From a virus, in UHGV virus genome UHGV-1826220: DNA of 15,821 nt; one strand, written 5' to 3'. Position numbers and translations under genes: made by a program. Below are positions 1 through 15,821 of this stretch, in pieces (position 1 is the first letter of the stretch; each line of letters starts with the position of its first letter). The notes under the pieces were generated by a model that was given only the letters and a program-made list of their open reading frames with translations, did not search any database and was not told the DNA's origin.

Positions 1-189
1 AATCTCACCCTGCATTTCTGCCTGCAGCCAGTCCTCCGGCGACATACGGAAATACGCCTCCGGCTCACCGGAGATATTCACGCAGGGGAAATATCTTTCC
101 CCCTCCGGCGTGCTTACCACGAAGCCGCACGACTCCGCTGGCGCACATCGCCGGGCGTGCGCCAGAATCGCTGATTCTGTCTGTGTCAT
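1..189 (-). CDS. K: Tail tip assembly protein gpK, N-terminal 63 codons only (runs off left window edge)
   Basis: Reverse-complement of 1-189 translates in frame from ATG at 189-187 to MTQTESAILAHARRCAPAESCGFVVSTPEGERYF..., recalled as the lambda gpK N-terminus; lies 5 nt downstream of the L stop codon. Not in the ORF track because truncated. Confidence 0.8.
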   Translation of the reverse strand, partial: MTQTESAILAHARRCAPAESCGFVVSTPEGERYFPCVNISGEPEAYFRMSPEDWLQAEMQGEI

Positions 190-194
190 GGGAT

Positions 195-893
195 TTACTG
201 CGAAAGTTTGTTAATGGAAAGGAAGCCGCCAAAGTTGCCGACGTTATTGCGGAACTTACAACCGCTCAGGCATTTGCTGCATTTATCCTTCGTGATATCG
301 GACGTTGGCTGGTCATATTCATCCGCGACAGCCGGACCGCTATAACCGCACTCGTCACCGCGATAGGTCCAGGTGCAGGTGTTGGCCAGCATGATACGTC
401 CCGGAAAAACAGCGCCATCCGTTTCCGTCGGCGTGGACAGTACAAAAGAGGCACTCACCGCGCTCAGTTCGCTGCACTGCTCAATGCGCCAGCGGCTGAT
501 CACCTCCTGCTCCGGATCGGCGTCACTGTTTCCGTTGACGAAGTTCACCGCATCCAGAAAACGGGCGTAAACCTTACGCCGGACCACCGTTCCTCCGACC
601 AGACTCTGCAGGTCTTCCGCCATCCCGGTGACAAGGCCGAACAGATTGGACACCGTCAGCGACGGTCTGGCACTGCTGCCTTTCCCGTTCATTTCAAAGC
701 CGCTGCCATCAATCGGGTACGCTTGGTACTTCCGCCCCTGCCAGGTGACCGGCTCCCCTTTTTCATTCAGCTCATTACAGAAAAAATACCGCTCACCGCC
801 CTGCACCGTCAGGTCAATTTCCCAGAGCACCACCCGCGGTGACTGCTCTGATTTAACCGACTCGCTCAGACTTTCTTCGTGAATATCCTGCAT
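195..893 (-). CDS. L: Tail tip protein gpL (232 aa), with C-terminal cysteine cluster
   Basis: Track ORF 195..893(-), 232 aa, MQDI...FLSINKLSQ; length and sequence match lambda gpL; start overlaps the M stop (TGATG). Confidence 0.93.
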   Translation of the reverse strand: MQDIHEESLSESVKSEQSPRVVLWEIDLTVQGGERYFFCNELNEKGEPVTWQGRKYQAYPIDGSGFEMNGKGSSARPSLTVSNLFGLVTGMAEDLQSLVGGTVVRRKVYARFLDAVNFVNGNSDADPEQEVISRWRIEQCSELSAVSASFVLSTPTETDGAVFPGRIMLANTCTWTYRGDECGYSGPAVADEYDQPTSDITKDKCSKCLSGCKFRNNVGNFGGFLSINKLSQ

Positions 894-1222
894 CAGTTCA
901 CCACCTGCTTAAACTCCGCGCTGAACTCAACGCGCAACATCCCGACCCGCGCAGACCACCCGGCACAGGTCACCTTTATCTGCCGGTATGCATAGGGTGG
1001 CTTCCACAAAAATGCCTTCCAGCCACCGTGCTCTGCCAGGAACGCTTCCAGATGCCGGGCCTCCTCCCGGGTCACGGAAAGCGTCACCCTGTATGTTTTC
1101 AGGTCAGCATTCAGCCCTGCCGCCATACGCTGTGAGTACCCGTCACCAAAACGCACTTCACGCACCGATGGCTGCGAGTTCACCTCCATATCCGGCTTCA
1201 CTTTCCAGCGAAAGGTTTTCAT
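893..1222 (-). CDS. M: Tail tip protein gpM (109 aa)
   Basis: Track ORF 893..1222(-), 109 aa, MKTFRWKVKP...; same length as lambda gpM; ATGA overlap with the H stop. Confidence 0.93.
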   Translation of the reverse strand: MKTFRWKVKPDMEVNSQPSVREVRFGDGYSQRMAAGLNADLKTYRVTLSVTREEARHLEAFLAEHGGWKAFLWKPPYAYRQIKVTCAGWSARVGMLRVEFSAEFKQVVN

Positions 1223-3780
1223 CCACCGCTCCCTGATAACATACCGCCATCACGCAACTGCAGCCGGAGTTCATCCTGTGCCCCCTTGCGGGCCATCTCA
1301 TACACCGCTTTCATCAGCTGCGGCCCTGCCCGCCCGTTGGGGCCGTCGTTCTGAATCACCACGTGATTGTTCTGATTAAAATTAATGCCTTCAGCCCGCC
1401 GCATCTGCGCCGGACTTCCGGCACCGCCCACATAACCACCTTCCGCATAGCCCCGCATCAGGCGGTACAGGTTGCCGACACCAATCCGGCTGGTTGCCTC
1501 CTTCGTGAAGACAAATTCACCACGGTGAACAATCCCCGCTGGCTCATATTTGCCGCCGGTTCCCGTAAATCCTCCGGTTGCAAAATGGAATTTCGCCGCA
1601 GCGGCCTGAATGGCTGTACCGCCTGACGCGGATGCGCCGCCACCAACAGCCCCGCCAATGGCGCTGCCGATACTCCCGACAATCCCCACCATTGCCTGCT
1701 TAAGCAGAATTTCTGTCATCATGGACAGCACGGAACGGGTGAAGCTGCGCCAGTTCTGCTCACTGCCGGTCAGCATCGCCGCCATATTCTGTGCAATACC
1801 ATCAAAGGTCTGCGTGGCTGCACTTTTTACCTGCGACATACTGTCCGTGGCGCTCTCTTCCCACTCACTCCAGCCGGACTTCAGGCCTGCCATCCAGCTC
1901 CCGCGAAGCTGGTCTTCAGCCGCCCAGGTCTTTTTCTGCTCTGACATGACGTTATTCAGCGCCAGCGGATTATCGCCATACTGTTCCTTCAGGCGCTGTT
2001 CCGTGGCTTCCCGTTCTGCCTGCCGGTCAGTCAGCCCCCGGCTTTTCGCATCAATGGCGGCCCGTTTTGCCCGTTGCTGCTGTGCGAATTTATCCGCCTG
2101 CTGCGCCAGCGCGTTCAGGCGCTCCTGATACGTAACCTTGTCGCCAAGTGCAGCCAGCTGGCGTTTGTACTCCAGCGTCTCATCTTTATGCGCCAGCAGG
2201 GATTTCTCCTGTGCAGACAGCTGGCGACGTTGCGCCGCCTCCTCCAGTACCGCGAACTGACTCTCCGCCTTCCACAAATCCCGGCGCTGCTGGCTGATTT
2301 TCTCATTTGCTCCGGCATGCTTCTCCAGCGTCCGGAGTTCTGCCTGAAGCGTCAGCAGGGCAGCATGAGCACTGTCTTCCTGACGATCGCCCGCAGACAC
2401 CTTCACGCCGGACTGTTTCGGCTTTTTCAGCGTCGCTTCATAATCCTTTTTCGCCGCCGCCATCAGCGTGTTGTAATCCGCCTGCAGGATTTTCCCGTCT
2501 TTCAGTGCCTTGTTCAGTTCTTCCTGACGGGCGGTATATTTCTCCAGCGGCGTCTGCAGCCGTTCGTAAGCCTTCTGCGCCTCTTCGGTATATTTCAGCC
2601 GTGACGCTTCGGTATCGCTCTGCTGCTGCGCATTTTTGTCCTGTTGAGTCTGCTGCTCAGCCTTCTTTCGGGCGGCTTCAAGCGCAAGACGGGCCTTTTC
2701 ACGATCATCCCAGTAACGCGCCCGCGCTTCATCGTTAACAAAATAATCATCCTTGCGCAGATTCCAGATGTCGTCTGCTTTCTTAAACGCAGCCTCTGCC
2801 TTAATCAGCATCTCCTGCGCGGTATCAGGACGACCAATATCCAGCACCGCATCCCACATGGATTTGAATGCCCGTGCTGTCCTGTCTGCCCAGGTCTCCA
2901 GCGTGCCCATGTTCTCTTTCAGGCGGCGGGTCTGGTCATCAAACCCTTTCGTTGCGGCCTCGTTCGCCGCCTGCAATGCCCCGGCTTCATCTCCGGAACG
3001 CTGCAACTGAGCAACATACGCAATCTGCTCCGCCGTCACGTTATGGAACTGGCGTGCCATCGCCGTCAGCCCCGACGTCGGGTCTGTGGTCAGCTTCCCG
3101 AAGGCTTCAGCGACCTTGTCCACCTCCACGCCGGATGCAGAGGAGAAACGCGCCACACTCTGGCTGATCGCCTCAAACTGCTCACCACCACGCACACCGG
3201 CATTCACCAGCGCCGTCAGTGACTCGCTGGTCTGGTTAAACGTCAGCCCTGCCGCCTGCCCGGCTCTGGACAGGACCAGCATACGATCTGCCGTCAGTCC
3301 CGCCTGATTGCCGGAAAGGACCAGCGTTTTGTTGAAATCGGACAGGGTTGAGTTGCCCTGATACCAGGCATACGCCAGCGCACCGGTCGCCACCGCCAGC
3401 GAGGTGGCCCCCACCATCGGCAGGGTGATCGCACCGGCAAGCCCCCTGAACATGGGGATCATCCCGCCGAAGGAGTCCTTAACCTGACCACCCTGTTGCA
3501 GCAGGATCAGCCACGGGCTTTGCCCGCCTGCAAGCTGCGTGGCCACGTCGGTGAACTGTGCAGGCAGCATACGCATGGCGGCTTTATACTGCCCGACGGA
3601 AATCCCCGCTTTCTGTGCAGCCAGCGCCTGTCGGCTCAGCGACTGTTCAACGACTGCCGCTGTTTTTTTCGCATCAGTTTCCGTACCGGAAAAATGACGC
3701 CTGACTCTGGCCATCTGCTCGTCAAATCTGGCCGCATCCAGACTTAAATCAACGACCAGATCGCCTACCGGTTCAGCCAT
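1219..3780 (-). CDS. H: Tail tape measure protein gpH (853 aa)
   Basis: Track ORF 1219..3780(-), 853 aa, same length as lambda gpH; N-terminus MAEPVGDLVVDLSLDAARFDEQ...; long charged coiled-coil middle; Gly-rich hydrophobic segment near the C-terminus. Confidence 0.95.
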   Translation of the reverse strand: MAEPVGDLVVDLSLDAARFDEQMARVRRHFSGTETDAKKTAAVVEQSLSRQALAAQKAGISVGQYKAAMRMLPAQFTDVATQLAGGQSPWLILLQQGGQVKDSFGGMIPMFRGLAGAITLPMVGATSLAVATGALAYAWYQGNSTLSDFNKTLVLSGNQAGLTADRMLVLSRAGQAAGLTFNQTSESLTALVNAGVRGGEQFEAISQSVARFSSASGVEVDKVAEAFGKLTTDPTSGLTAMARQFHNVTAEQIAYVAQLQRSGDEAGALQAANEAATKGFDDQTRRLKENMGTLETWADRTARAFKSMWDAVLDIGRPDTAQEMLIKAEAAFKKADDIWNLRKDDYFVNDEARARYWDDREKARLALEAARKKAEQQTQQDKNAQQQSDTEASRLKYTEEAQKAYERLQTPLEKYTARQEELNKALKDGKILQADYNTLMAAAKKDYEATLKKPKQSGVKVSAGDRQEDSAHAALLTLQAELRTLEKHAGANEKISQQRRDLWKAESQFAVLEEAAQRRQLSAQEKSLLAHKDETLEYKRQLAALGDKVTYQERLNALAQQADKFAQQQRAKRAAIDAKSRGLTDRQAEREATEQRLKEQYGDNPLALNNVMSEQKKTWAAEDQLRGSWMAGLKSGWSEWEESATDSMSQVKSAATQTFDGIAQNMAAMLTGSEQNWRSFTRSVLSMMTEILLKQAMVGIVGSIGSAIGGAVGGGASASGGTAIQAAAAKFHFATGGFTGTGGKYEPAGIVHRGEFVFTKEATSRIGVGNLYRLMRGYAEGGYVGGAGSPAQMRRAEGINFNQNNHVVIQNDGPNGRAGPQLMKAVYEMARKGAQDELRLQLRDGGMLSGSGG

Positions 3781-4611
3781 ACCGGACTCCTCCTGCGATC
3801 CCTTCTGATACTGTCATCAGCATTACGTCATCCTCCGTCATGTCCGCCACATCCGGGGAAGCGGGGATAACTTCATTCCCGTCCGGGCCAAAGCGGACAC
3901 CTCCGGCAAGCCCTGCCGCTTTCTGCATCAGCACATCATCTTCAGGCTCTTCGTCAGCCTCGCGCCGGTTCAGCAGACTGAAATCCAGCGGATGCATATC
4001 CGGATCGCTGAAAAACAGGCTGAGCACGGTGTACGTCAGCCCGGAAAAGTGCATATCCAGCAGAACATCATGAAAATAATGGGTACTGTAAAAGCGGTGC
4101 CAGTCGGCATACTCCGTGGATGACATCCCGGCAAGCATGGCACGCCAGTCGGGTCGCCCCATCTCACGCGCCAGTTTCAGGGCAAAACTCAGCTCACCGT
4201 CGAACACTTTCCCGCAGAAACAGGCTCTGCTGGCCCGGCGTCATCTGCCTGTTCAGGTGCATCATTCACAACAAACTCAGACATACCGGACAGACGCATT
4301 ACCACATTTTCAGCCTGAGCAATTGCCTCTGTGGGCCAGGTGGTAAGCACTTCCTGCTCAATTTGTTTAACGGCTTCATTCATGGACGGCATCTTTGTCT
4401 TCTGCGGATGGCTATGCCACAGGGACATCGCCACCAGAAAAGCACCGGTTCTGACGAGATCTTCCACGCTCACCTGTCGATTGAGACTGGATCCCGCCTG
4501 TTCTGCCTGTCGTTTCAGCAGGGCGAGATGCTCAATTCGCTGCAGGGCTGACAGTTCAGAAAGCGTGACGCTCACACCGTTATATTCAAATGATTCGGTT
4601 TTCAGGAACAT
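3773..4611 (-). CDS. T: Tail assembly chaperone gpGT fusion, made by a -1 programmed ribosomal frameshift from the G frame into the T frame at the slippery heptamer
   Basis: The T-frame ORF (track 3773..4207, minus) has no credible independent start and overlaps the 3' end of G; slippery heptamer G_GGA_AAG lies on the minus strand at 4207-4213 just before the G stop. The G-T frameshift is established for lambda. Confidence 0.8.
4189..4611 (-). CDS. G: Tail assembly chaperone gpG (140 aa)
   Basis: Track ORF 4189..4611(-), 140 aa, MFLKTESFEYNGV...AGKCSTVS; matches lambda gpG. Confidence 0.93.
   Translation of the reverse strand: MFLKTESFEYNGVSVTLSELSALQRIEHLALLKRQAEQAGSSLNRQVSVEDLVRTGAFLVAMSLWHSHPQKTKMPSMNEAVKQIEQEVLTTWPTEAIAQAENVVMRLSGMSEFVVNDAPEQADDAGPAEPVSAGKCSTVS
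4207..4213 (-). other. -1 programmed ribosomal frameshift slippery heptamer GGGAAAG (G to T frame)
   Basis: Plus-strand CTTTCCC at 4207-4213, which is GGGAAAG on the minus strand, in the last codons of G. Confidence 0.8.
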
Positions 4612-4626
4612 CGCTGACTCTCCGGA

Positions 4627-5367
4627 TTAACTGTCGGTGACGGTGATTTCTGCAACCACAGCAAGTTCACCATTACCGGATACAACCGGAATGTTGACCT
4701 TGCCTGCAGCAACACCTTTCACGGTGATGGTCATACCACTGACCGACACGGTGGCTTTTGTTTTATCCGCAGACACCGCACGGAAGCTCTTGTCGGTTGC
4801 GCCTTCCGGCTGGAATGCCACGGTCAGCGTGGTGCTCTGCCCTTTCACCACCGAAGTGCTGGCAGGCGTCACGGTCATGCCGGTTGCCGCTGTTACCGTG
4901 CTGCGATCTTCTGCCATCGACGGACGTCCCACATTGGTGACCTTCACCGTGCGGGTAATCACTTCCTTCGCCGTCACCGCCTTACCGATACTGCTGACCC
5001 AGCCACGGAACACATCGACCGTGCCGTTCGGGAAGCGGATTTTATAGGCACGGGTATCACCTTCATTAAACCACGCCAGCAGCGCCTGCTGCCCCTGCTC
5101 TCCGGGCATCCACGCCAGCGTGAAGCTGGTATCTCCGGCAGATTTCTGCCCCTGCCCGGTCGCAGTCCAGTCTGCATCTTCATCATCGAGATAGCTGTCG
5201 TCATAGGACTCAGCGGTCAGTTCGCCGGGCGTCAGGTCTTTAACTTTTGCCAGACGCGACCAGTCAACGTCTGAAAGCGGGTTCGCATAAGGGTCACCGC
5301 TCCCCTTATAAACCCACAGGGTGGTCCCGGCACCTTTCACCGGCATTGTAGGATTTGGTACAGGCAT
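4627..5367 (-). CDS. V: Major tail tube protein gpV (246 aa) with C-terminal Ig-like domain
   Basis: Track ORF 4627..5397 (256 aa) trimmed to the internal ATG at 5367-5365 ([14 protein letters not shown]...), which is preceded by GAGGA 5 nt upstream and gives the lambda length of 246 aa. Confidence 0.92.
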
Positions 5368-5374
5368 AGCGTCC

Positions 5375-5770
5375 TCACATTTCATAGGTAATGACATAAG
5401 TCAGATCGGCTGAACTCCACAGGCCCGCATCATCGTCGCGCCGGTAGTCATAGCCACTGGCCACCATACTGGTGATCAAATCTGACAGTGCCGGGATATC
5501 GCTCATCACCGGATAAATCCGGGACTCCATCCACGCATCCAGCTCTGAATCCGGCACCTGAGCAGGCAGGAAAACTTCGATATGCAGCTCCGCCTGCCAG
5601 GTATCGCTGTCCAGCTCTTCGCCCGTGTATTCAGCGCCGGTGAGATAAACGGCAATTGCCGGAAAATCTTCCTCATCAAAAACAGCGGGGCGACCATCAA
5701 AAAGCGTCGCCCCGGTGTCATGCTTCTCCAGTGCATCCAGTACGGCTGCACGGAGTTCAGTATGTTTCAT
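5375..5770 (-). CDS. U: Tail terminator protein gpU (131 aa)
   Basis: Track ORF 5375..5770(-), 131 aa, [37 protein letters not shown]...; ATGA overlap with the Z stop. Confidence 0.93.
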
Positions 5771-6345
5771 CGCTTTATTACCATCCTCAGTTGATGCTGC
5801 AGCGCATAGCCCAGCTCTTTCGGAAGACGCTCACGCCGTATCCGCTCAATATTCTGTTTAAACGCCGTGGTCAGCGGCACCGCCATCGGGATTTTCACCA
5901 CATCAATGGGGTAACGGTTTTTCCCGGCCACACGCTGCATGACATGCCAGCGGCCATTTTTCAGTTGCTGAATAAACGCGCCGGGAATACGACGGTTTCC
6001 CACCACAAGCACGCTGCCGCCACCTTTCAGGGCTGAACGCTGCCCCTTTTTACGACGCCTGCGGCGCGAAAGGACAACCCGCGCATTACCCAGCTTGATT
6101 ACGGGCAAATCCCCCCGGTTAACTTTGATTCTGGCCTGCGGATTTTTGACCGTGGCCCTTTTCAGCCTGGCCCTTTCCTTTACCAGTTTCCGGCGTACCT
6201 TTGTCTCACGGGCAACCTGTGACGCCGACTGCGATATCGCGGATGAAGCAACGCGGTTAATGGCCATTGCGGCGGCACCGGGCACCGCCGTTCTGCTGAT
6301 ACGGCTGAGGTTTTCAACGGCCTGCTCAAGACCTTTTATGGCCAT
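5767..6345 (-). CDS. Z: Tail completion protein gpZ (192 aa)
   Basis: Track ORF 5767..6345(-), 192 aa, MAIKGLEQAVENLSRIS...; same length as lambda gpZ. Confidence 0.93.
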   Translation of the reverse strand: MAIKGLEQAVENLSRISRTAVPGAAAMAINRVASSAISQSASQVARETKVRRKLVKERARLKRATVKNPQARIKVNRGDLPVIKLGNARVVLSRRRRRKKGQRSALKGGGSVLVVGNRRIPGAFIQQLKNGRWHVMQRVAGKNRYPIDVVKIPMAVPLTTAFKQNIERIRRERLPKELGYALQHQLRMVIKR

Positions 6346-6356
6346 ACATCCCCCTT

Positions 6357-6710
6357 TCAGCGGCGACGGTTAACGGCAGGCGGTACGCCCCGCCCAAGCC
6401 AGAGATGACAGCTTCCGCCATCATCCGGCGAAATCCGGTCTATCCAGAAGTTTTCCTCACCGATGGTCAGCGTGTCGCCGCGCCGCAGCTGCCGCACATC
6501 ATCAGTCCGGACAAACAGGGACGGGCTGGAGCCTTCAACGCGCACGCCCTGTCCGGCATAGCTGATATTTTCAGGGTCATCAAAAACACCACGTATCACA
6601 GCACCGGACTGCTCACCGGATGTCATGGTGGCTGACGTTCCCATGTACCCGCGTATCGTTTCATCGGCGCGGGCAATGGCAGCATCGAACAGGTTATCGA
6701 AATCAGCCAC
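6357..6710 (-). CDS. FII: Head-tail joining protein gpFII (117 aa)
   Basis: Track ORF 6357..6710(-), 117 aa, MADFDNLFDAAIARADETIRGYMG...; matches lambda gpFII. Confidence 0.93.
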   Translation of the reverse strand: MADFDNLFDAAIARADETIRGYMGTSATMTSGEQSGAVIRGVFDDPENISYAGQGVRVEGSSPSLFVRTDDVRQLRRGDTLTIGEENFWIDRISPDDGGSCHLWLGRGVPPAVNRRR

Positions 6711-6721
6711 AGCGCCTCCCG

Positions 6722-7108
6722 TTATTGCATTCTGGCCAGGCCGCGCTCTGTCATTTCAGCTGCCACACCGGCAGAGACACGGAACGCCGTTCCCGGCAGC
6801 ACAAATGCCACAGCCTCATCCCGCGTGGCGTGAAGTGCATCAGTATGCAGCGTCACCAGTGCCACAACCGTGACCAGATCAGCCGTATCAGTCACGGTAT
6901 CCGGCTGCGCTGATACAACCTCATTTTCATGTCCGGTCAGCGCATTTTCCGGGCTGATAGGGGTATCCTGATCGGCAGTGTCATCAAGCTCCTCTTCCAG
7001 CTCTGCCACACGGAGCGCCAGTTCTTCTTTCGTCCCCGTCAGGCTGACATCACGGTTCAGTTGCTCACCCAGCACCTGAAGACGGGCAATCAGTTCATCT
7101 TTCGTCAT
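6722..7108 (-). CDS. FI: DNA packaging / head assembly protein gpFI (128 aa)
   Basis: Track ORF 6722..7147 trimmed to the ATG at 7108-7106 (MTKDELIARLQ...), which has a strong GGAGGAG Shine-Dalgarno immediately upstream; the longer ORF start lacks one. Confidence 0.88.
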   Translation of the reverse strand: MTKDELIARLQVLGEQLNRDVSLTGTKEELALRVAELEEELDDTADQDTPISPENALTGHENEVVSAQPDTVTDTADLVTVVALVTLHTDALHATRDEAVAFVLPGTAFRVSAGVAAEMTERGLARMQ

Positions 7109-7149
7109 GGACTCCTCCACAGAGAGAAAATGGCCCCGAAGGGCCATGA

Positions 7150-8175
7150 TTACGCCAGTTGTACGGACACGAACTCATCAGGGTCAGCCAGCAGCATCAG
7201 CGGTGCTGACTGAATCATGGTGAACTCACGCGCCGGATCGCCGGTGGTCACCCAGTTTTTCGGGTAACGGGCAGAGGCGTTAATGCCTTCGCGCTGTGCG
7301 TCCGCATCCTGAATGCAGCCATAGGTGCGCAGACCGCGTGCCTGAGTGTTCCCCAGCACCATCGTGTTGTCCGGCAGGAAGTTCTTTTTGACGCCGTTTT
7401 CCACGTACTGTCCGGAATACACGACGATGGCCACATCGCCATACATCCCCTTATAGGACACCGCTTTACCCAGGTCTTTCACCGCTGTCTCCAGCTCGGA
7501 ATGAGAGCCGCGACGGGTATCCAGCTTCTCCCTGACGGCTTTGAAGGAACGGAACAGCGCCCAGCCTTTCGGATCAAACACGATGATATTCACCACGCCG
7601 CTGGCGTTCAGCGCGTAGGCTTCGATATCGTCGGTCGGGTCATACGTGGACTTGTCACGCTTGCTCCACTCCGTGCTGCCGGACTGCGTGATGTTGTTCG
7701 CCGCACTGCGGCCCATATCCACCTCAACCGGATCGAAGGCTTCACCGGTCATGGTGTATTTGCCCTTGAGCACGGCAGAAACTGCCTGCATCTCTTCGAC
7801 CTGAGCAATGGCCAGCTCTTCGTCACGCATGTTCTGCATGATGATGCGACGGCGGCGGTAAGCCGGGTCCGCCAGATTCTGCGGATCTTCATCCGGCAGG
7901 CGACGCAGGGTCATCTGCGGATTCACCTCATGCTTCGGCTTGACATATCCCGGCGTAAATTCAGAGGTGGAGCCGCCACGGGAACGGATAACCTCACCGG
8001 AAACAATCGGCGAAACGTACAGCGCCATGTTTACCAGTCCCGGAATTTGTGAGAGATAGACTTTCTCCGTGGTGAAGGGATAGCTCTCACGGAAAAAGAG
8101 ACGCAGAAACAGCGGATCAAACTTAAATTTCTGCTCATTTGCCGCCAGCAGCTGGGCGGTTGTGTACATCGACAT
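7150..8175 (-). CDS. E: Major capsid protein gpE (341 aa, HK97-fold)
   Basis: Track ORF 7150..8202 trimmed to the ATG at 8175-8173 (MSMYTTAQLLAANEQKFKFDPLFLRLFF...), giving the lambda gpE length of 341 aa. Confidence 0.93.
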   Translation of the reverse strand: MSMYTTAQLLAANEQKFKFDPLFLRLFFRESYPFTTEKVYLSQIPGLVNMALYVSPIVSGEVIRSRGGSTSEFTPGYVKPKHEVNPQMTLRRLPDEDPQNLADPAYRRRRIIMQNMRDEELAIAQVEEMQAVSAVLKGKYTMTGEAFDPVEVDMGRSAANNITQSGSTEWSKRDKSTYDPTDDIEAYALNASGVVNIIVFDPKGWALFRSFKAVREKLDTRRGSHSELETAVKDLGKAVSYKGMYGDVAIVVYSGQYVENGVKKNFLPDNTMVLGNTQARGLRTYGCIQDADAQREGINASARYPKNWVTTGDPAREFTMIQSAPLMLLADPDEFVSVQLA

Positions 8176-8180
8176 AAAAA

Positions 8181-8209
8181 AATCCCGTAAAAAAAGCCGC
8201 ACAGGCGGC
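8181..8209 (-). other. GC hairpin followed by a T-run in the D-E intergenic spacer (terminator-like or attenuator-like structure, minus strand)
   Basis: Minus-strand RNA reads GCCGC-CUGU-GCGGC then UUUUUUUACGGGAUUUUUUU, ending at the E start codon (8175). Confidence 0.35.
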
Positions 8210-8230
8210 CTTTAGTGATGAAGGGTAAGG

Positions 8231-8569
8231 TTAAACGATGCTGATTGCCGTTCCGGCAAACGCGGTCCGTTTTTTCGTCTCGTCGCTGGCAGCCTCCGGC
8301 CAGAGCACATCCTCATAACGGAACGTGCCGGACTTGTAGAACGTCAGCGTGGTGCTGGTCTGGTCAGCAGCAACCGCAAGAATGCCAACGGCAGCACCGT
8401 CGGTGGTGCCATCCCACGCAACCAGCTTACGGGTGGAGGTGTCCAGCATCAGCGGGGTCATTGCAGGCGCTTTCGCACTCAATCCGCCGGGCGCGGTTGC
8501 GGTATGAGCCGGGTCACTGTTGCCCAGCGGCTGGTAATGGGTAAAGGTTTCTTTGCTCGTCATAAACAT
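8231..8569 (-). CDS. D: Head decoration protein gpD (112-aa ORF)
   Basis: Track ORF 8231..8569(-), [43 protein letters not shown]...; matches lambda gpD. Confidence 0.93.
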
Positions 8570-8572
8570 CCC

Positions 8573-9178
8573 TTACACTGGTGTGTTCAGCAAATCGTTA
8601 ACGGCATCAGATGCCGGGTTACCTGCAGCCAGCGGTGCCGGTGCCCCCTGCATCAGACGATCCAGCGCAGTGTCACTGCGCGCCTGTGCACTCTGTGGTG
8701 CTGCGGCCAGAATGCGGCGGGCCGTTTCCACGGTCATACCGGGGGTTTCTGCCAGCACGCGGGCCTGTTCTTCGCGTCCGTGAGCCTCCTCACAGTTGAG
8801 GATCCCCATAATGCGGCTGTTTTCTGCCGCAACCGCAGCGGTGATCTGCGCGTTCACGTCCGGCTGCGCCGCGCTGGCGTTTTCGCCCTCCGTCGCTGGC
8901 ACCACGTCAGTAACGTCAGCCTGCGAAGCAGTGGCTGAAACAGTTGTTGATTGAGTCTCTTTGGTCATTCGCCCTCCTGAGAGACGGGATTTACGTGCAT
9001 CCAGTGCATCACGCATGACGGTGATCGCATCGGTGCTGTTAACAAGTTCATCAGCCAGTCCGGCATCAATGGCCTCCTGACCGCTGTACACTGCAGCCTC
9101 GGTATCCAGCACAGCCTGCACGGACAGGCCGGTATATGCCGACACCTTCTGTGCAAACATCCGGCGGGTTGCATCCAT
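8573..9178 (-). CDS. Nu3: Capsid scaffolding protein gpNu3 (201 aa), translated in frame from an internal start inside C
   Basis: Established lambda arrangement: Nu3 is the C-terminal 201 codons of the C frame. The ATG at 9178-9176 (MDATRRMFAQKV...) sits exactly 201 codons before the shared stop. Not in the track because it is nested in frame. Confidence 0.65.
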   Translation of the reverse strand: MDATRRMFAQKVSAYTGLSVQAVLDTEAAVYSGQEAIDAGLADELVNSTDAITVMRDALDARKSRLSGGRMTKETQSTTVSATASQADVTDVVPATEGENASAAQPDVNAQITAAVAAENSRIMGILNCEEAHGREEQARVLAETPGMTVETARRILAAAPQSAQARSDTALDRLMQGAPAPLAAGNPASDAVNDLLNTPV

Positions 9179-9872
9179 CCGGGACTGCAGTGTTTCCCGG
9201 ACATCATCCGGTAGATGGCTGTAGGGGTTGCCATCCACCTTATGGCTGCCGCTGTAAATCAGCGTGATTTCCACGCCCTGTTTCTCCAGCGCAGCACCGT
9301 AATTACTGTGAGCCATCATGACGCCGATGGAGCCTGTCCGGGCGGTCTGCGTGACCAGACGCCGGGAGGCGGCACTGGCAAGCAGCTGACCTGCACTGCA
9401 GTTCATGTCGTTGGCCAGCGCCCATACCGGTTTTATGTCTCGCACACGGGCGATGATGTCAGCACAGTCAAATGCTCCCGCCACCATCCCGCCCGGTGTG
9501 TCCATATCCAGCAGAATGCCGTCCACCATCGGATCGCTGGCAGCCTGTTGCAGACGGGCGATAATGCCGTTGTAACCGGTCATCCCCGAATACGGCTGCA
9601 GCGCCCGCGTCCGGCTGACCAGCGTGCCGGACACCGGCAGCACGGCGATGCCGTTCATGACCTGATAACTGCGGGCCTGTCGTGGTCCGTCATCATCACC
9701 GGATAACGCCAGCGCCGCGGGTGCCTCTCCGGCAGTCAGGCTGTCGCCGGATACTGCATCCGTCAGGCGGCTGATCCCAAGCTGGCCTGCAAGCGCACAA
9801 AAGAAAACCCGCGCATAGGCGGGTTCAAGCATCAGCGGCTCATTAAAGGCCATGCTGGCAATATGCGGGAGA

Positions 9873-9892
<20 letters not shown>
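8573..9892 (-). CDS. C: Prohead protease / minor capsid protein gpC (439 aa, ClpP-like S49-type peptidase), GTG start
   Basis: Track ORF 8573..10027 (484 aa) trimmed to the GTG at 9892-9890 (reads VTAELRNLPHIASMAFNEPLML...), which is preceded by GGAGAAGAG; gives the lambda gpC length and the usual ~20-nt overlap with the B 3' end. Confidence 0.85.
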
Positions 9893-13573
<3,681 letters not shown>

Positions 13574-13599
<26 letters not shown>

Positions 13600-14119
13600 T
13601 CAGCAACCCCGGTATCAGTTCATCCAGCGCGGCTGCTTTGTTCATGGCTTTGATGATATCCCGTTTCAGGAAATCAACATGTCGGTTTTCCAGTTCCGGA
13701 AAACGCCGCTGCACCGACAGGGGGATCCCGTCGAGAATACTGGCAATTTCACCTGCGATCCGCGACAGCACGAAAGTACAGAATGCGGTTTCCACCACTT
13801 CAGCGGAGTCTCTGGCATTTTTCAGCTCCTGTGCGTCGGCCTGCGCACGCGTAAGTCGATGGCGTTCGTACTCAATAGTCCCTGGCTGGAGATCTGTCTC
13901 GCTGGCCTGCCGCAGTTCTTCAACTTCCCGGCGCAGCTTTTCGTTCTCAATTTCAGCATCCCTTTCGGCATACCATCTTATAACGGCGGCAGAGTCATAA
14001 AGCACCTCATTACCCTTGCCACCGCCTCGCAGAACGGGCATTCCCTGTTCCTGCCAGTTCTGAATGGTACGGATACTCGCACCGAAAATGTCAGCCAGCT
14101 GCTTTTTGTTGACTTCCAT
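13574..14119 (-). CDS. Nu1: Terminase small subunit gpNu1 (181 aa)
   Basis: Track ORF 13574..14119(-), 181 aa, MEVNKKQLADIFGASIRTIQNWQEQGMPVLRGGGKGNEVLYD...; sits immediately next to the cosB R-sites. Confidence 0.95.
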
Positions 14120-14143
14120 TGTTCATTCCACGGCCAAAAACAG

Positions 14144-14159
14144 AGAAAGGAAACGACAG
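14144..14159 (-). promoter_or_regulatory. cosB R1 element (gpNu1 binding site)
   Basis: AGAAAGGAAACGACAG, 25-40 bp upstream of the Nu1 start; perfect inverted copy at 14185-14200. Confidence 0.75.
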
Positions 14160-14184
14160 AGGCCCAAAAGCTCGTTTTCAGCAC

Positions 14185-14200
14185 CTGTCGTTTCCTTTCT
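14185..14200 (-). promoter_or_regulatory. cosB R2 element (gpNu1 binding site), inverted relative to R1
   Basis: CTGTCGTTTCCTTTCT is the exact reverse complement of 14144-14159. Confidence 0.75.
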
Positions 14201-14244
14201 TTTCAGGGGGTATTTTAAATAAAAACATTAAGTTACGACGAAGA

Positions 14245-14258
14245 AGAACGGAAACGCC
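14245..14258 (-). promoter_or_regulatory. cosB R3 element (gpNu1 binding site, degenerate copy)
   Basis: AGAACGGAAACGCC matches the R1 motif AGAAAGGAAACGAC at 12 of 14 positions, in the same orientation as R1. Confidence 0.65.
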
Positions 14259-14296
14259 TTAAACCGGAAAATTTTCATAAATAGCGAAAACCCGCG

Positions 14297-14308
14297 AGGT
14301 CGCCGCCC
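14297..14308 (-). other. cosN cohesive-end 12-mer (reverse complement of GGGCGGCGACCT); terminase nicking site, phage left and right ends joined here
   Basis: Plus-strand AGGTCGCCGCCC at 14297-14308, flanked by sequence I recall as the lambda left end (cosB side) and right end (cosQ side). Confidence 0.9.
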
Positions 14309-14343
14309 CGTAACCTGTCGGATCGCCGGAAAGGACCCGCAAA
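14309..14343 (-). other. cosQ-containing segment (right-end side of cosN); exact cosQ bounds not resolved
   Basis: CGTAACCTGTCGGATCGCCGGAAAGGACCCGC matches the recalled lambda right-terminal sequence with a few substitutions; cosQ is known to lie within about 30 bp of cosN on this side. Confidence 0.55.
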
Positions 14344-14360
14344 ATGATAATAATTATCAT
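14344..14360. promoter_or_regulatory. Perfect 17-bp palindrome ATGATAATAATTATCAT containing a 7-1-7 Fur-box-like inverted repeat (TGATAAT-A-ATTATCA)
   Basis: Reverse complement is identical except for the central base; matches the Fur 7-1-7 heptamer consensus. Function here is not established. Confidence 0.4.
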
Positions 14361-14507
14361 CTGCATGTCACAACGTGCATCTACGCCATCAAACCACGTC
14401 AAATAATCAATTATGACGCAGGTATCGTATTAATTGATCTGCATCAACTTAACGTAAAAACAACTTCAGACAATACAAATCAGCGACACTGAATACGGGA
14501 CAACCTC

Positions 14508-14741
14508 ATGTCAACGAAGAACAGAACCCGCAGAACAACAACCCGCAACATCCGCTTTCCTAACCAAATGATTGAACAAATTAACATCGCTCTTGATCAA
14601 AAAGGGTCCGGGAATTTCTCAGCCTGGGTCATTGAAGCCTGCCGCCGGAGACTGTGCTCAGAAAAAAGAGTTTCTTCTGAAGCAAACAAAGAAAAGAGTG
14701 ACATTACTGAATTGCTCAGAAAACAGGTCAGACCAGATTGA
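14508..14741 (+). CDS. Hypothetical small basic protein (77 aa), ribbon-helix-helix-like DNA-binding fold predicted
   Basis: Track ORF 14508..14741(+). Basic Thr/Arg-rich N-terminal arm, then a strand / helix / G-x-N turn / helix pattern (RNIRFPNQ, MIEQINIALDQ, KGSGN, FSAWVIEACRRRL) typical of Arc/MetJ/CopG proteins. No clear Shine-Dalgarno; coding status uncertain. Confidence 0.4.
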   Translation: MSTKNRTRRTTTRNIRFPNQMIEQINIALDQKGSGNFSAWVIEACRRRLCSEKRVSSEANKEKSDITELLRKQVRPD

Positions 14742-14798
14742 AGCAATTTAGATAATCGTGCAGACTACGCCCCCTCATATCACATGGAAGGTTTATCT

Positions 14799-15209
14799 AT
14801 GGATCAGGTAGTCATTTTTAAACAAATATTTGATAAAGTTCGAAACGATTTAAACTATCAATGGTTTTATTCTGAGCTAAAACGTCACAATGTCTCACAT
14901 TACATTTACTATTTAGCCACAGAGAATGTTCATATTGTATTAAAAAATGATAATACAGTGTTATTAAAGGGCCTAAAAAACATTGTGTCTGTCAAATTTT
15001 CAAAGGATAGGCATCTTATAGAAACGACCTCTAATAAGCTGAAATCCAGAGAGATCACATTTCAGGAATACAGAAGAAACCTTGCTAAAGCAGGAGTTTT
15101 TCGGTGGGTTACAAATATCCACGAACAAAAAAGATATTACTATACCTTTGATAATTCATTACTATTTACTGAAAGCATCCAGAAAACTACACAGATCTTA
15201 CCACGCTAA
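14799..15209 (+). CDS. YbcV-like (DUF1398) prophage protein, 136 aa from the second ATG (track ORF begins at 14784)
   Basis: Track ORF 14784..15209(+). The ATG at 14799 is preceded by GGAAGG 7 nt upstream, whereas 14784 has no Shine-Dalgarno. C-terminal motif ...[36 protein letters not shown]... resembles the YbcV/DUF1398 family as recalled. Strongly AT-rich codon usage unlike the structural genes. Confidence 0.6.
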
Positions 15210-15360
15210 ACCATAACGTCCGGCTTCTCTCACTCCTGAGCCGGACTGCATTGGTTTAATAAAAACCATCAACAATTGTGATTTAGATATTCGGAACCAT
15301 TCAAATATAACAAAACCCCGTAAAAACGAGGTTTATGGATAAATTTTATTATTGAATACA

Positions 15361-15537
15361 TCAGATTAAATTAATCTTGACATCATAGCTTTCAAGACCC
15401 GTCATTTTTTCCCGTGCGGTAAACTGAATACTGGTAACTTCTTTCCCGGTCTTTTTCTTAAGTTCAATAATTTTTTTTGTTATATATTCAGAAATATCTG
15501 CTTCTGCTTTTGTTTTTAAGTTTTCAATATTCATCAT
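15361..15537 (-). CDS. Hypothetical small protein (58 aa; 57 aa if the second ATG at 15534 is used), charged and Lys-rich
   Basis: Own translation of the reverse complement: MMNIENLKTKAEADISEYITKKIIELKKKTGKEVTSIQFTAREKMTGLESYDVKINLI, stop at 15363-15361. AAGAGGAA Shine-Dalgarno directly upstream; a TATAAT hexamer on the minus strand at 15573-15578. Below the 60-aa cutoff of the ORF track. Confidence 0.5.
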   Translation of the reverse strand: MMNIENLKTKAEADISEYITKKIIELKKKTGKEVTSIQFTAREKMTGLESYDVKINLI

Positions 15538-15705
15538 TTCCTCTTTTAGTCTGTTATGACTTTCCAGTTACACAGTAAGTCGATTATATGGTGCAAACGT
15601 GTAAAAGATAAGATGAAACATCGCAATAATCAACATACGATAGTCTAAATTTTACACAAACAGACAAAGAGAATTTTCCTGAATTATCAATGCAATAGCA
15701 TCAAA

Positions 15706-15821
15706 TCAACTCAAGAGCCTTATTGCTGCTTCCAGAATTTCTTCTGAAGTAACATGTCGATCCGCGGCTACATAAATGACTTTATGATCTCCGGTCAGAG
15801 ATGGAAACCCTGCGGCCATTA
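15706..15821 (-). CDS. Unidentified ORF, 3' end only (at least 37 codons, ...MAAGFPSLTGDHKVIYVAADRHVTSEEILEAAIRLLS, stop at 15708-15706); probably continues beyond the right window edge
   Basis: Open minus-strand frame from the window edge to TGA. The ATG at 15819-15817 could be a start, but the preceding partial codon is not a stop, so the frame may extend upstream outside the window. Confidence 0.25.
   Translation of the reverse strand, partial: MAAGFPSLTGDHKVIYVAADRHVTSEEILEAAIRLLS

What the first reader, a model, noticed from the sequence alone, without database searches (positions are those of the whole stretch)
14460..15700. AT-rich accessory segment between cos and the (unseen) lysis region, with convergently arranged small genes
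Base composition changes sharply here. The morphogenesis genes are GC-rich, while 14780-15700 is conspicuously AT-rich with A/T-ending codons. The segment carries a YbcV/DUF1398-like ORF (plus strand) facing a 58-aa ORF (minus strand). By my memory of the lambda map, gene order right of cos differs from lambda even though the first ~300 bp next to cos match lambda closely. This is the typical signature of horizontally acquired moron or lysogenic-conversion cargo, and it is the only part of the window where function is unknown.
Basis: partly seen in the sequence, partly recalled or inferred. Interest (0 to 1): 0.5.

Follow-up and report, generated by a model that had tools for sequence, protein, structure and literature searches.

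The report
Known Qin-type prophage accessory gene cassette
The AT-rich stretch next to cos is real, but it is the well-known ynfO–ydfO–gnsB–ynfN accessory cassette of E. coli lambda-like prophages (as in K-12 prophage Qin), found in about a fifth to two fifths of complete E. coli genomes, so it is ordinary.

Summary
GC falls from 0.572 in the head/tail/terminase genes to 0.320 in 14780-15700. GC3 is 0.29-0.31 there against 0.56-0.69. A plus-strand DUF1398 gene faces a minus-strand small gene.

The segment is already known. It matches K-12 prophage Qin (99.4%), inducible phage PhiR42_1 (99.8%) and 1037 of 5426 complete E. coli genomes over 14100-15821.

Compared with lambda there are three modules:
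- cos to ynfO codon 54, 97% identical.
- A ydfO module (14721-15228), 84% identical. Lambda's ybcW is absent.
- A cargo slot after a conserved hairpin, where gnsB-ynfN(-cspI) replaces bor.

Lambda's own ybcV is equally AT-rich (GC 0.337).

gnsB looks like a moron. It has a conserved TATAAT, its own terminator, and strong expression in lysogens of prophage Tritos, whose gnsB module is 99.8% identical. The known phenotype is that overexpression raises unsaturated fatty acids. The functions of ydfO and ynfO remain unknown. The 'addiction toxin' label is not supported, because no YmcE homologue is present.

The parts
14297..14308 (.). cosN cohesive-end sequence (AGGTCGCCGCCC, reverse complement of lambda's left end). 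It anchors the map: everything to its right corresponds to lambda's right end.
   Evidence: Read directly from the sequence. The region 13500-14670 is 97.4% identical to lambda and 98.0% to DLP12.
14508..14741 (+). ynfO (77 aa), YlcI/YnfO family, DUF3950. Residues 1-50 are nearly invariant and the C-terminal tail varies between homologues. It is possibly a ribbon-helix-helix DNA binder.
   Evidence: PF13132 scores 74.7 bits against a cut-off of 25; NF041551 scores 35.6 against 30. It is annotated ynfO in Qin and ECONIH5. Alignment A1 shows the invariant N-terminus and variable tail. The AF2 model has pLDDT 69. The best Foldseek hits are RHH-type proteins, but with E values of 2.7-9.4.
14670..14721 (.). 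Mosaic joint with lambda/DLP12, inside ynfO (codon 54 onward). About 50 bp here stand in place of about 614 bp in lambda, which hold the YlcI C-terminus and ybcW.
   Evidence: Pairwise BLAST coordinates; lambda and DLP12 annotation.
14722..14738 (+). PdhR-box-like palindrome AACAGGTCAGACCAGAT, at the left edge of the ydfO module and 46-62 bp upstream of the 14784 ATG.
   Evidence: Single exact match in the window, with 0 expected by chance. The same sequence is listed as a gSELEX PdhR site between ynfO and ydfO in K-12. ybcV and ybcW mRNA fell about 10-fold in a pdhR mutant (PMC7660256).
14799..15209 (+). ydfO (136 aa from the RefSeq start; the ORF can also be read from 14784 as 141 aa). DUF1398. 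It lies antisense to the phage late transcript.
   Evidence: PF07166 scores 157.5 bits against a cut-off of 22. It is 140/141 identical to PDB 2HH8 'ydfO'. dN/dS against lambda and DLP12 ybcV is 0.18-0.22. A GGAAGG Shine-Dalgarno-like motif lies 6-11 nt before the 14799 ATG (sequence).
15218..15246 (+). Stem-loop just after the ydfO stop codon. Its left arm (..CATAACGTCCGG) is the last sequence shared by all relatives, so it marks the right edge of the ydfO module and the start of the cargo slot.
   Evidence: RNA fold of -21.9 kcal/mol, z = -5.6. The junction alignment of window, lambda, DLP12, PhiR70_1, PhiR49_1 and Tritos shows where they diverge. BLAST similarity to lambda ends at 15228.
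15313..15334 (-). Intrinsic-terminator-like hairpin followed by a U-run, 27 nt downstream of the gnsB stop codon.
   Evidence: Terminator scan: 9-bp stem, then TGTTATATTT.
15361..15534 (-). gnsB (57 aa). GnsA/GnsB family.
   Evidence: PF08178 scores 120.2 bits against a cut-off of 27. E = 5.8e-20 to the GnsA structure 4XO2. The DNA is identical to K-12 gnsB. dN/dS is 0.14-0.15. The AAGAGGAA Shine-Dalgarno motif is spaced for the second ATG.
15583..15588 (-). Perfect TATAAT (-10-like) in the 168-bp spacer between ynfN and gnsB. There is no canonical -35. Candidate gnsB promoter.
   Evidence: Sequence. It is invariant, and lies within a nearly fully conserved block, in phage 2H10, whose module is only 85% identical overall. 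The consensus promoter scan did not call it.
15706..15821 (-). 3' part of ynfN, cut by the window end. It is 76 aa in PhiR42_1 and ECONIH5 and 51 aa as annotated in K-12.
   Evidence: Annotation of collinear relatives. Translations and dN/dS of 0.2 are. No Pfam family was found.

Best explanation

It is built from three exchangeable modules:
1. cos plus the conserved N-terminal 54 codons of ynfO. These travel with the terminase genes.
2. A self-contained ydfO unit (14721-15228). It starts at a PdhR-box-like palindrome and ends at a hairpin.
3. A cargo slot after that hairpin. It holds bor in lambda and DLP12, other genes in other phages, and here the gnsB-ynfN end of a cold-shock-type cassette.

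Mechanism. Shown steps:
- The gene identities, the mosaic breakpoints, purifying selection, and the terminator after gnsB.
- High gnsB mRNA in a lysogen of a near-identical module.

Inferred steps:
- gnsB is transcribed in the lysogen from its own promoter (TATAAT at 15588-15583) and stopped by its own terminator.
- During lytic growth, Q-antiterminated late transcription reads through that terminator.
- GnsB shifts membrane lipids toward unsaturated fatty acids. This is the published overexpression phenotype of GnsA and GnsB. Together with the neighbouring csp genes, this would help the lysogen at low temperature or under membrane stress.
- ydfO is a separately regulated gene, responsive to host regulators (PdhR, stress), whose biochemical role is still unknown.
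- ynfO probably encodes a small DNA-binding protein.
For: Identity:
- 99.8% to phage PhiR42_1, 99.7% to the ECONIH5 prophage and 99.4% to K-12 Qin, collinear to the window end.
- Family matches are far above their cut-offs.
- YdfO is 140/141 identical to PDB 2HH8. gnsB DNA is identical to K-12 gnsB.

Prevalence: 1037 of 5426 complete E. coli genomes carry at least 80% of 14100-15821. 2112 of 5426 carry the gnsB-ynfN part.

Modules:
- BLAST breakpoints fall at 14670/14721 and at 15228.
- All relatives share ..CATAACGTCCGG and then diverge.
- Alternative cargo is seen in lambda and DLP12 (bor), PhiR70_1 and PhiR49_1.
- Tritos combines a lambda-type ybcW/ybcV with a 99.8%-identical gnsB module.
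- In phage 2H10 gnsB lies about 400 bp from the genome end, with no annotated ynfO or ydfO.

Real genes: dN/dS is 0.14-0.22.

Expression signals:
- gnsB has a terminator and a conserved TATAAT block.
- The PdhR-box sequence is present, and published data show a PdhR effect on ybcV and ybcW.

Expression in a lysogen: in LF82 prophage Tritos the 174-bp gene (gnsB by size and coordinates) reads log2 fpkm 7.6-12.3. The 426-bp ybcV reads 2.8-5.2, at terminase background.

Phenotypes from the literature:
- gnsA or gnsB overexpression raises unsaturated fatty acids and suppresses fabA6(Ts), secG null and relA fadR cold-sensitive growth.
- ydfO was induced by an ionic liquid, and its overexpression is reported to increase oxidative-stress resistance.
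- ynfN, ynfQ and cspI are co-induced after AZT treatment.

Cassette logic: the K-12 locus cspG-ymcF-ymcE-gnsA is a paralogous copy of cspI-ynfQ-(ynfR)-ynfN-gnsB. ymcF and ynfQ are 66% identical.
Against: - The physiological role of GnsB at native expression level is not established. All functional data are overexpression phenotypes, and the papers read say the molecular basis is unknown.
- The candidate gnsB promoter lacks a recognisable -35, and the consensus scan did not call it.
- The lysogen RNA-seq comes from a different prophage (Tritos), not this one. The assignment to gnsB relies on gene length and coordinates, because the labels in that paper's S1 table appear shifted by one gene.
- The ydfO homologue was near background in those data, so 'expressed from the repressed prophage' is not shown for ydfO.
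- The RHH assignment for YnfO is not statistically supported.
- The window ends inside ynfN, so the csp part of the cassette is inferred from relatives.
Confidence: 0.8

Rival explanations
1. gnsB is the toxin of a type II toxin-antitoxin (addiction) module that stabilises the prophage, as the RefSeq and Pfam names imply. ynfN, or the RHH-like ynfO, would act as the antitoxin.
For: The Pfam and RefSeq names are 'GnsA/GnsB toxin' and 'addiction module toxin'. ymcE-gnsA is listed among E. coli type II TA pairs. ynfN occupies the position that ymcE holds in the paralogous cassette. YnfO has weak RHH- and HicB-like signals, and RHH domains are typical of antitoxins.
Against: YnfN shows no similarity to YmcE (BLASTP finds nothing). 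PF15939 matches YmcE at 188.9 bits but not YnfN. ymcE overlaps gnsA by 11 nt as in an operon, whereas ynfN and gnsB are separated by 168 bp holding a separate promoter-like element. ynfO travels with ydfO and cos in phages that lack gnsB, such as lambda, PhiR70_1 and PhiR49_1. ASKA gnsB plasmids rescue growth rather than kill. gnsB mRNA is high in LF82 lysogens without apparent harm, and the 156-bp ynfN mRNA is much lower.
Confidence: 0.1
2. ynfO and ydfO serve the phage itself, in DNA packaging or cos function or as virion components. The database labels 'head protein' and 'putative envelope protein' suggest this. Their AT-richness would then be incidental.
For: They sit immediately next to cos in lambda, DLP12, Qin and many phages. 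PHROG 413 is labelled 'head protein'. Lambda records call ybcV 'putative envelope protein'. The ynfO N-terminal coding DNA is as conserved as the terminase genes, at 97%.
Against: Both genes are antisense to the late operon that expresses all morphogenesis genes (orientation, plus established lambda transcription). Phage 2H10 has gnsB about 400 bp from its genome end and no annotated ynfO or ydfO. ydfO is retained and regulated by host factors in cryptic prophages that cannot package. No evidence for the 'head' or 'envelope' labels appeared in any paper read.
Confidence: 0.05
3. ydfO, with ynfO as its regulator, is an anti-phage or superinfection-exclusion gene, or an anti-defence gene. Many AT-rich prophage accessory genes at module boundaries have such roles.
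For: The context is an accessory gene at a mosaic junction, antisense to the late genes, under purifying selection. It is widely spread among lambdoid prophages: 4844 of 5426 genomes match some part of the query.
Against: No PADLOC model matches any of the six proteins, apart from one weak chance-level hit for lambda YbcW. No literature link was found. The homologue is nearly silent in LF82 lysogens under five conditions, which is unusual for a constitutive exclusion gene.
Confidence: 0.08
4. The AT-rich stretch is decaying, silenced DNA without function, and its ORFs are left over from former genes.
For: Very low GC. The ydfO homologue is near background expression in LF82. The cassette also persists in defective prophages.
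Against: All ORFs are intact. dN/dS is 0.14-0.22 between diverged copies. Copies at or above 99% identity occur in more than a thousand genomes and in an inducible phage. gnsB is highly transcribed, and there are published phenotypes.
Confidence: 0.03

Closest known systems
E. coli K-12 cryptic prophage Qin, nohA-ynfO-ydfO-gnsB-ynfN-ynfR-ynfQ-cspI region (b1548-b1552)
   Same: Same genes, order and strands. 99.4% nucleotide identity from 13591 to the window end, and gnsB DNA is identical.
   Different: Qin is defective: nohA is fused to tail-fibre genes and there is no terminase A or head genes. The window carries an intact lambda-type Nu1-A-W-B-C-...-H-M-L arm. YnfO differs by one residue, D30 here and E30 in K-12.
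Escherichia phage PhiR42_1 (PV340562.1), an inducible lambda-like phage
   Same: The only one of 50,697 phage records that covers the whole 14100-15821 query (99.8%). It covers the whole 15.8-kb window at 97.2%.
   Different: The morphogenesis genes are slightly more diverged than the accessory segment. In that record the genes are annotated mostly as hypothetical.
Phage lambda right end (YlcI-like ORF, ybcW = lambdap79, ybcV = lambdap78, bor) and K-12 prophage DLP12 (ylcI-ybcW-ybcV-borD)
   Same: The same slot between cos and Rz. The cos to ynfO-codon-54 stretch is 97-98% identical. ybcV and ydfO are orthologous (84-85% nucleotide identity), share the upstream palindrome and the post-gene hairpin arm, and are similarly AT-rich: lambda ybcV has GC 0.337.
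   Different: Lambda and DLP12 carry ybcW, which is absent here. They carry bor after the hairpin where this phage has gnsB-ynfN. The YnfO C-terminal tail also differs.
Chromosomal cspG-ymcF-ymcE-gnsA locus of E. coli K-12
   Same: A paralogous cassette with the same gene order and direction: csp, YmcF-like zinc-ribbon small protein (66% identity), a 76-aa middle gene, then gns.
   Different: The middle genes ymcE and ynfN are not detectably homologous. ymcE overlaps gnsA, whereas gnsB has a 168-bp upstream spacer with its own -10-like element.
Prophage Tritos of AIEC strain LF82 (OV696610.1)
   Same: Its gnsB-ynfN module is 99.8% identical to 15229-15821. It provides lysogen RNA-seq data for this module.
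   Different: It keeps ybcW and a lambda-type ybcV. Identity over 14721-15821 is 92.6% overall.

Membership tests
GnsA/GnsB family (Pfam PF08178) | Profile match above the curated cut-off over the full ~54-residue domain, in a ~57-aa protein | tested here: met
   120.2 bits against a cut-off of 27, profile positions 1-54 of 54. E = 5.8e-20 to the GnsA crystal structure 4XO2. DNA identical to K-12 gnsB.
GnsA/GnsB family (Pfam PF08178) | Overexpression raises unsaturated fatty acids and suppresses fabA6(Ts) and the secG null mutation | not testable with these tools
   Known for K-12 gnsB, cited as Sugai et al. 2001. It applies by sequence identity only.
Type II toxin-antitoxin module of the YmcE-GnsA kind | An adjacent, co-transcribed antitoxin gene of the YmcE family (PF15939) | tested here: not met
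   The position-equivalent gene ynfN has no BLASTP similarity to YmcE and no PF15939 match, whereas YmcE scores 188.9 bits. A 168-bp spacer replaces the overlapping arrangement.
Type II toxin-antitoxin module of the YmcE-GnsA kind | The toxin arrests growth and the partner neutralises it | not testable with these tools
Papers read report growth rescue by gnsB plasmids, not toxicity.
DUF1398 (Pfam PF07166; YdfO/YbcV) | Full-length profile match above the cut-off | tested here: met
   157.5 bits against a cut-off of 22, profile positions 1-119 of 119. 140/141 identity to PDB 2HH8.
YlcI/YnfO family (Pfam PF13132 DUF3950; NCBIfam NF041551) | Profile match above the cut-off on the conserved N-terminal segment | tested here: met
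   74.7 bits against 25 and 35.6 bits against 30. Residues 1-50 are nearly invariant among homologues.
Ribbon-helix-helix DNA-binding superfamily (proposed for YnfO) | Significant sequence-profile or fold match to solved RHH proteins (strand-helix-helix, dimeric) | tested here: inconclusive
   The profile search against PDB found no RHH hit. The AF2 model has pLDDT 69, with two helices after an extended segment at residues 13-18. The top Foldseek hits are RHH-type (TCP domain, ParD2, ArtA), but with E values of 2.7-9.4 and probability of 0.33 or less. There is a weak match to a HicB-like PHROG, E = 0.0078.
Moron (an extra gene unit in a prophage, in the sense of Hendrix and co-workers) | Present or absent, or replaced, between genes that are adjacent in related phages | tested here: met
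   After the shared ..CATAACGTCCGG junction, relatives carry bor, gnsB-ynfN-cspI, a 253-aa ORF, or KilA-N genes.
Moron (an extra gene unit in a prophage, in the sense of Hendrix and co-workers) | Base composition distinct from the neighbouring phage genes | tested here: met
   GC 0.30-0.32 against 0.57, and GC3 0.29-0.31 against 0.56-0.69.
Moron (an extra gene unit in a prophage, in the sense of Hendrix and co-workers) | Own terminator | tested here: met
   A minus-strand hairpin with U-run at 15334-15313, 27 nt after the gnsB stop codon.
Moron (an extra gene unit in a prophage, in the sense of Hendrix and co-workers) | Own promoter | tested here: inconclusive
   A perfect, conserved TATAAT at 15588-15583, but no canonical -35 and no call by the consensus scan.
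Moron (an extra gene unit in a prophage, in the sense of Hendrix and co-workers) | Transcribed in the uninduced lysogen | not testable with these tools
   Only by proxy. The 99.8%-identical module in LF82 Tritos shows high gnsB mRNA and background ybcV mRNA.

The most novel reading that the evidence does not exclude
Two untested ideas survive.

(a) The csp / YmcF-like / X / Gns cassette is a mobile cold- and membrane-adaptation operon. Its variable middle gene (YmcE in one copy, YnfN in the other) would be a specific partner or modulator of the Gns protein. Phages would shuttle the cassette between strains through the cargo slot behind the ydfO hairpin.

(b) YnfO is a cos-adjacent ribbon-helix-helix regulator functionally coupled to YdfO. 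The two ORFs are in the same frame with a single TGA between them, and a TGA-to-TGG fusion variant exists (P0122). They would form a conserved two-gene unit of still unknown, possibly conflict-related, function present in most lambdoid prophages, including lambda itself.
Probability: 0.12. Interest if true: 0.45.

Novelty: already known. Interest (0 to 1): 0.12.

Why it matters
As a discovery it matters little. The cassette is annotated in E. coli K-12 and is present in a large fraction of sequenced E. coli.

Three things are still useful:
1. It gives a clean, coordinate-level example of how the slot between cos and the lysis genes is assembled from exchangeable modules. The junctions fall at a regulatory palindrome and at a hairpin.
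2. It shows that the 'addiction module toxin', 'head protein' and 'envelope protein' labels on these genes lack support.
3. ydfO/ybcV and ynfO/ylcI are carried even by phage lambda, and ydfO has a solved structure, yet neither has a known function.

Tried and rejected
- Rfam scan of 13900-15821 at E up to 1. The only hit was a spurious mir-578 match (24 bits against a gathering score of 98) on the inverted Nu1-binding repeats of cosB. No RNA family was found in the segment.
- PADLOC defence models. No hit for YnfO, YdfO, GnsB, YnfN or YnfQ.
- Consensus promoter scan. Two sites found against 5.9 expected from shuffles, so no enrichment. The only site is on the minus strand at 14371-14344 and points toward cos.
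- YnfO profile against PDB sequences. Nothing relevant.
- YnfN as a YmcE homologue (antitoxin hypothesis). No similarity.
- The two large homologue searches returned only close relatives in the listed top 120, at 68% identity or more. Many came from ~3.5-kb ENA contigs that look like noisy lambda control DNA. They added little depth.
- Sugai et al. 2001 (PMC95442) is not held in the library. The GnsA/GnsB phenotypes are therefore cited through papers that describe them.
Full report
**1. What the window is**

The window is the left (morphogenesis) arm of a lambda-like phage or prophage, read as the reverse complement. The minus strand carries lambda-type L, M, H, tail and head genes. It also carries terminase A (11674-13599) and Nu1 (13574-14119; Phage_Nu1, 336.7 bits). 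The whole window is 96-97% identical to lambda and its closest relatives. The cosN sequence AGGTCGCCGCCC, the reverse complement of lambda's left cohesive end, lies at 14297-14308. Everything to its right therefore corresponds to lambda's right end, between cos and the lysis genes.

**2. Check of the observation**

The composition claim holds.
- GC is 0.572 for 1-14119 and 0.320 for 14780-15700.
- No 921-bp window in the morphogenesis part falls below 0.532 (mean 0.574, sd 0.020).
- Third-position GC is 0.310 for the DUF1398 gene and 0.288 for the small minus-strand gene. It is 0.555-0.689 for eight morphogenesis genes.

The drop comes in two steps. The first is at the Nu1 start/cos (change points after 14102 and 14340, to about 0.43). 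The second is at about 14791 (to about 0.33). The finding's left coordinate (14460) is not itself a boundary.

The convergent pair of ORFs exists: 14784-15209 on the plus strand and 15361-15537 on the minus strand. One is a 77-aa plus-strand ORF at 14508-14741. The other is a minus-strand ORF that runs off the window end from 15706.

**3. Gene identities**

- *14508-14741 (+), ynfO.* DUF3950, YlcI/YnfO family: 74.7 bits against a cut-off of 25, and NF041551 at 35.6 against 30.
- *14784/14799-15209 (+), ydfO.* DUF1398: 157.5 bits against 22. It is 140/141 identical to the NMR structure 2HH8, 'ydfO'. The RefSeq start at 14799 is preceded by GGAAGG at a proper distance. The 14784 ATG has no such motif.
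- *15361-15534 (-), gnsB.* PF08178: 120.2 bits against 27, and E = 5.8e-20 to GnsA structure 4XO2. Its DNA is identical to K-12 gnsB. The 58-aa ORF includes one extra ATG; the AAGAGGAA ribosome-binding site fits the second ATG.
- *15706 to the window end (-), ynfN.* This is the 3' part only.

Diverged copies give dN/dS of 0.18-0.22 for ydfO, 0.14-0.15 for gnsB and 0.2 for ynfN. These are constrained protein-coding genes.

**4. How common and how well known the segment is**

The 1722-bp stretch 14100-15821 is collinear with three records: phage PhiR42_1 (99.8%), the prophage of strain ECONIH5 (99.7%) and K-12 cryptic prophage Qin (99.4%, from 13591 on). RefSeq annotates nohA-ynfO-ydfO-gnsB-ynfN in these records. 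The following genes are ynfR, ynfQ, cspI and the lysis genes.
- 1037 of 5426 complete E. coli genomes carry at least 80% of the stretch.
- 2112 of 5426 carry the gnsB-ynfN part.
- Only 7 of 50,697 phage records carry the gnsB-ynfN part.

This is an already known, very widespread cassette.

**5. Mosaic structure relative to lambda**

Pairwise BLAST and the annotations show three units.

(i) *13500-14670.* This is 97.4% identical to lambda and 98.0% to DLP12. It covers Nu1, cos and the first 54 codons of ynfO. Lambda has an unnamed 64-aa YlcI-like ORF at the same place. The N-terminal 50 residues of this family are nearly invariant and the tails differ. The joint therefore lies just after the conserved domain.

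(ii) *14670-14721.* About 50 bp here replace about 614 bp of lambda that hold the YlcI tail and ybcW (lambdap79). Similarity then resumes at 84-85% from 14721/14725 to 15228, across ydfO (= lambda ybcV, lambdap78).

(iii) *Beyond 15228.* There is no similarity to lambda or DLP12, which carry bor there.

The junction alignment shows that lambda, DLP12, PhiR70_1, PhiR49_1, Tritos, Qin and the window all share ..CATAACGTCCGG and then diverge. That sequence is the left arm of a strong stem-loop directly after the ydfO stop codon (15218-15246; -21.9 kcal/mol, z = -5.6).

Behind this hairpin different phages carry different cargo:
- bor in lambda and DLP12;
- gnsB-ynfN-csp here and in PhiR42_1, Tritos, Qin and 2H10;
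- a 253-aa ORF in PhiR70_1;
- KilA-N genes in PhiR49_1.

Tritos combines a lambda-type ybcW/ybcV with a gnsB module 99.8% identical to this one. In phage 2H10 gnsB lies about 400 bp from the genome end, with no annotated ynfO or ydfO. The units therefore move independently.

Lambda's own genes in this region are also AT-rich: ybcV 0.337, ybcW 0.391, bor 0.432. Low GC is a property of the whole accessory slot in lambdoid phages. It is not a peculiarity of this phage.

**6. Signals and expression**

By the established lambda map, the late transcript from pR' runs S-R-Rz, through this region and cos, into Nu1-A. In window orientation that is the minus strand. gnsB and ynfN are thus co-directional with late transcription. 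ynfO and ydfO are antisense to it, as bor is in lambda.

*gnsB.* A terminator-like hairpin plus U-run lies at 15334-15313, 27 nt after the stop codon. A 168-bp spacer lies upstream and contains a perfect TATAAT (15588-15583). That element sits in a block that is almost fully conserved in phage 2H10, whose module is only 85% identical overall. No canonical -35 is present, and the consensus scan did not call it.

*ydfO.* The left edge of the ydfO unit is the palindrome AACAGGTCAGACCAGAT (14722-14738; unique in the window). A gSELEX study lists this sequence as a PdhR site between ynfO and ydfO in K-12. The same study found ybcV and ybcW mRNA about 10-fold lower in a pdhR mutant (PMC7660256).

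Data exist for LF82 prophage Tritos (PMC9928086).
- The 174-bp gene LF82_0907 reads log2 fpkm 7.6-8.5 in overnight LB and 9.7-12.3 in the other four conditions (B1, B6, MB1, MB6).
- The 426-bp ybcV homologue reads 2.8-5.2, like the terminase genes.
- By length and coordinates, and by the phage record, LF82_0907 is gnsB.
- The paper's Table 1 and S1 table call it YnfN. Those labels appear shifted by one gene. S4 labels it GnsB.

**7. What the genes do**

*GnsB.* Papers read here state that overexpression of gnsA or gnsB increases unsaturated fatty acids. It also suppresses fabA6(Ts) and the cold-sensitive secG null mutation (Sugai et al. 2001, cited). gnsA or gnsB plasmids rescue the low-temperature growth defect of relA fadR strains. 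The molecular basis is unknown.

The K-12 chromosomal locus cspG-ymcF-ymcE-gnsA is a paralogous copy of cspI-ynfQ-(ynfR)-ynfN-gnsB. The csp, YmcF-like (66% identical) and gns genes align, but the middle gene does not. The linkage of gns genes to cold-shock genes in both copies, together with the lipid phenotype, makes a cold/membrane-fluidity role for the lysogen the best-supported function. This is an inference, not a demonstration.

*YdfO.* The structure is solved but the function is unknown. It is reported to be strongly induced by an ionic liquid. One paper states that overexpression increases oxidative-stress resistance. It is among four Qin genes that respond to DicC induction.

*YnfO.* No function is known. 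Its pattern (a basic N-terminus, then a segment at residues 13-18 with no assigned secondary structure, then two helices) and the best fold hits (TCP domain, ParD2, ArtA) point to a ribbon-helix-helix DNA binder. None of the matches is significant.

**8. The 'toxin' label**

RefSeq and Pfam call GnsB an addiction-module toxin by analogy with ymcE-gnsA. The defining partner is missing here.
- YnfN has no similarity to YmcE.
- It is not translationally coupled to gnsB.
- ynfO is linked to cos and ydfO rather than to gnsB.

I therefore do not file this as a toxin-antitoxin module, though toxicity was not testable. Likewise, no evidence was seen for the labels 'head protein' (PHROG 413) or 'putative envelope protein' for DUF1398.

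**9. Verdict**

The 'accessory/moron' reading is right in outline, best for gnsB. But the segment is the already annotated Qin-type cassette.
- About half of it (ynfO, ydfO) is shared with lambda itself.
- The 58-aa ORF is gnsB.
- Gene order differs from lambda only by the absence of ybcW and the bor-to-gnsB-ynfN swap.

Interest is low. The residual open question is the function of ydfO/ybcV and ynfO/ylcI, which is a general gap for lambdoid phages and not specific to this window.

Noticed in passing
window 15361-15534; literature PMC9928086, Table 1 and S1 table versus S4 table: In the LF82 prophage paper the moron listed as 'YnfN' (LF82_0907, 27-fold above background) is a 174-bp gene at 1610202-1610375. 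By length, by the S4 table and by the Tritos phage record it is gnsB. The product labels in S1 and Table 1 appear shifted by one gene.
   Followed up: yes
window 14508-15209: ynfO and the 141-aa reading of ydfO are in the same frame, with a single TGA (14739-14741) and no other stop between them. A database protein (P0122, 233 aa) is exactly the TGA-to-TGG read-through fusion. Lambda's 177-aa ybcV annotation also reads through the equivalent 'VRPDW' position.
   Followed up: partly
L007 1962-2741 (K-12 cspG-ymcF-ymcE-gnsA) versus L003 6262-7321 (cspI-ynfQ-ynfR-ynfN-gnsB): The chromosomal gnsA locus and the prophage gnsB locus are paralogous four-gene cassettes. Only the middle gene (ymcE versus ynfN) is non-homologous.
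   Followed up: yes
window 14146-14161 and 14186-14201: A perfect 16-bp inverted repeat, AGAAAGGAAACGACAG / CTGTCGTTTCCTTTCT, lies between the Nu1 start and cosN. From memory, it sits where lambda's cosB Nu1-binding R sites lie. It explains the spurious Rfam mir-578 hit and the self-inverted BLAST hits at 14144-14200.
   Followed up: partly
window 14344-14371, minus strand: A promoter-like site (GTGACA, 16-nt spacer, TATCAT; 10 of 12 matches) points toward cosN and Nu1. The scan as a whole found fewer sites than shuffled sequence, so this is probably chance.
   Followed up: no
protein hits P0024-P0116 and P0140-P0240 (ENA contigs of about 3.4-3.6 kb): Dozens of slightly aberrant YlcI and YbcV variants come from ~3.5-kb contigs. 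They look like error-rich assemblies of a lambda right-end control fragment rather than natural diversity (inference). They inflate the apparent family diversity.
   Followed up: no
window 14784-15209; PHROG 413 and lambda/DE3 records: DUF1398 proteins carry the labels 'head protein' (PHROG 413, RefSeq phage records) and 'putative envelope protein' (lambda, DE3). No supporting evidence was found. The gene is antisense to the late operon.
   Followed up: partly
L004 4955-5185 (K-12 ynfN) versus L003 6607-6837: K-12 ynfN is annotated as 51 aa, while PhiR42_1, ECONIH5 and 2H10 have a 76-aa form. The K-12 upstream sequence still encodes most of the longer N-terminus in frame but has lost the MKKII start (it reads HEKNHSFFNSEPA...). 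The K-12 gene may therefore be an N-terminally truncated version.
   Followed up: partly
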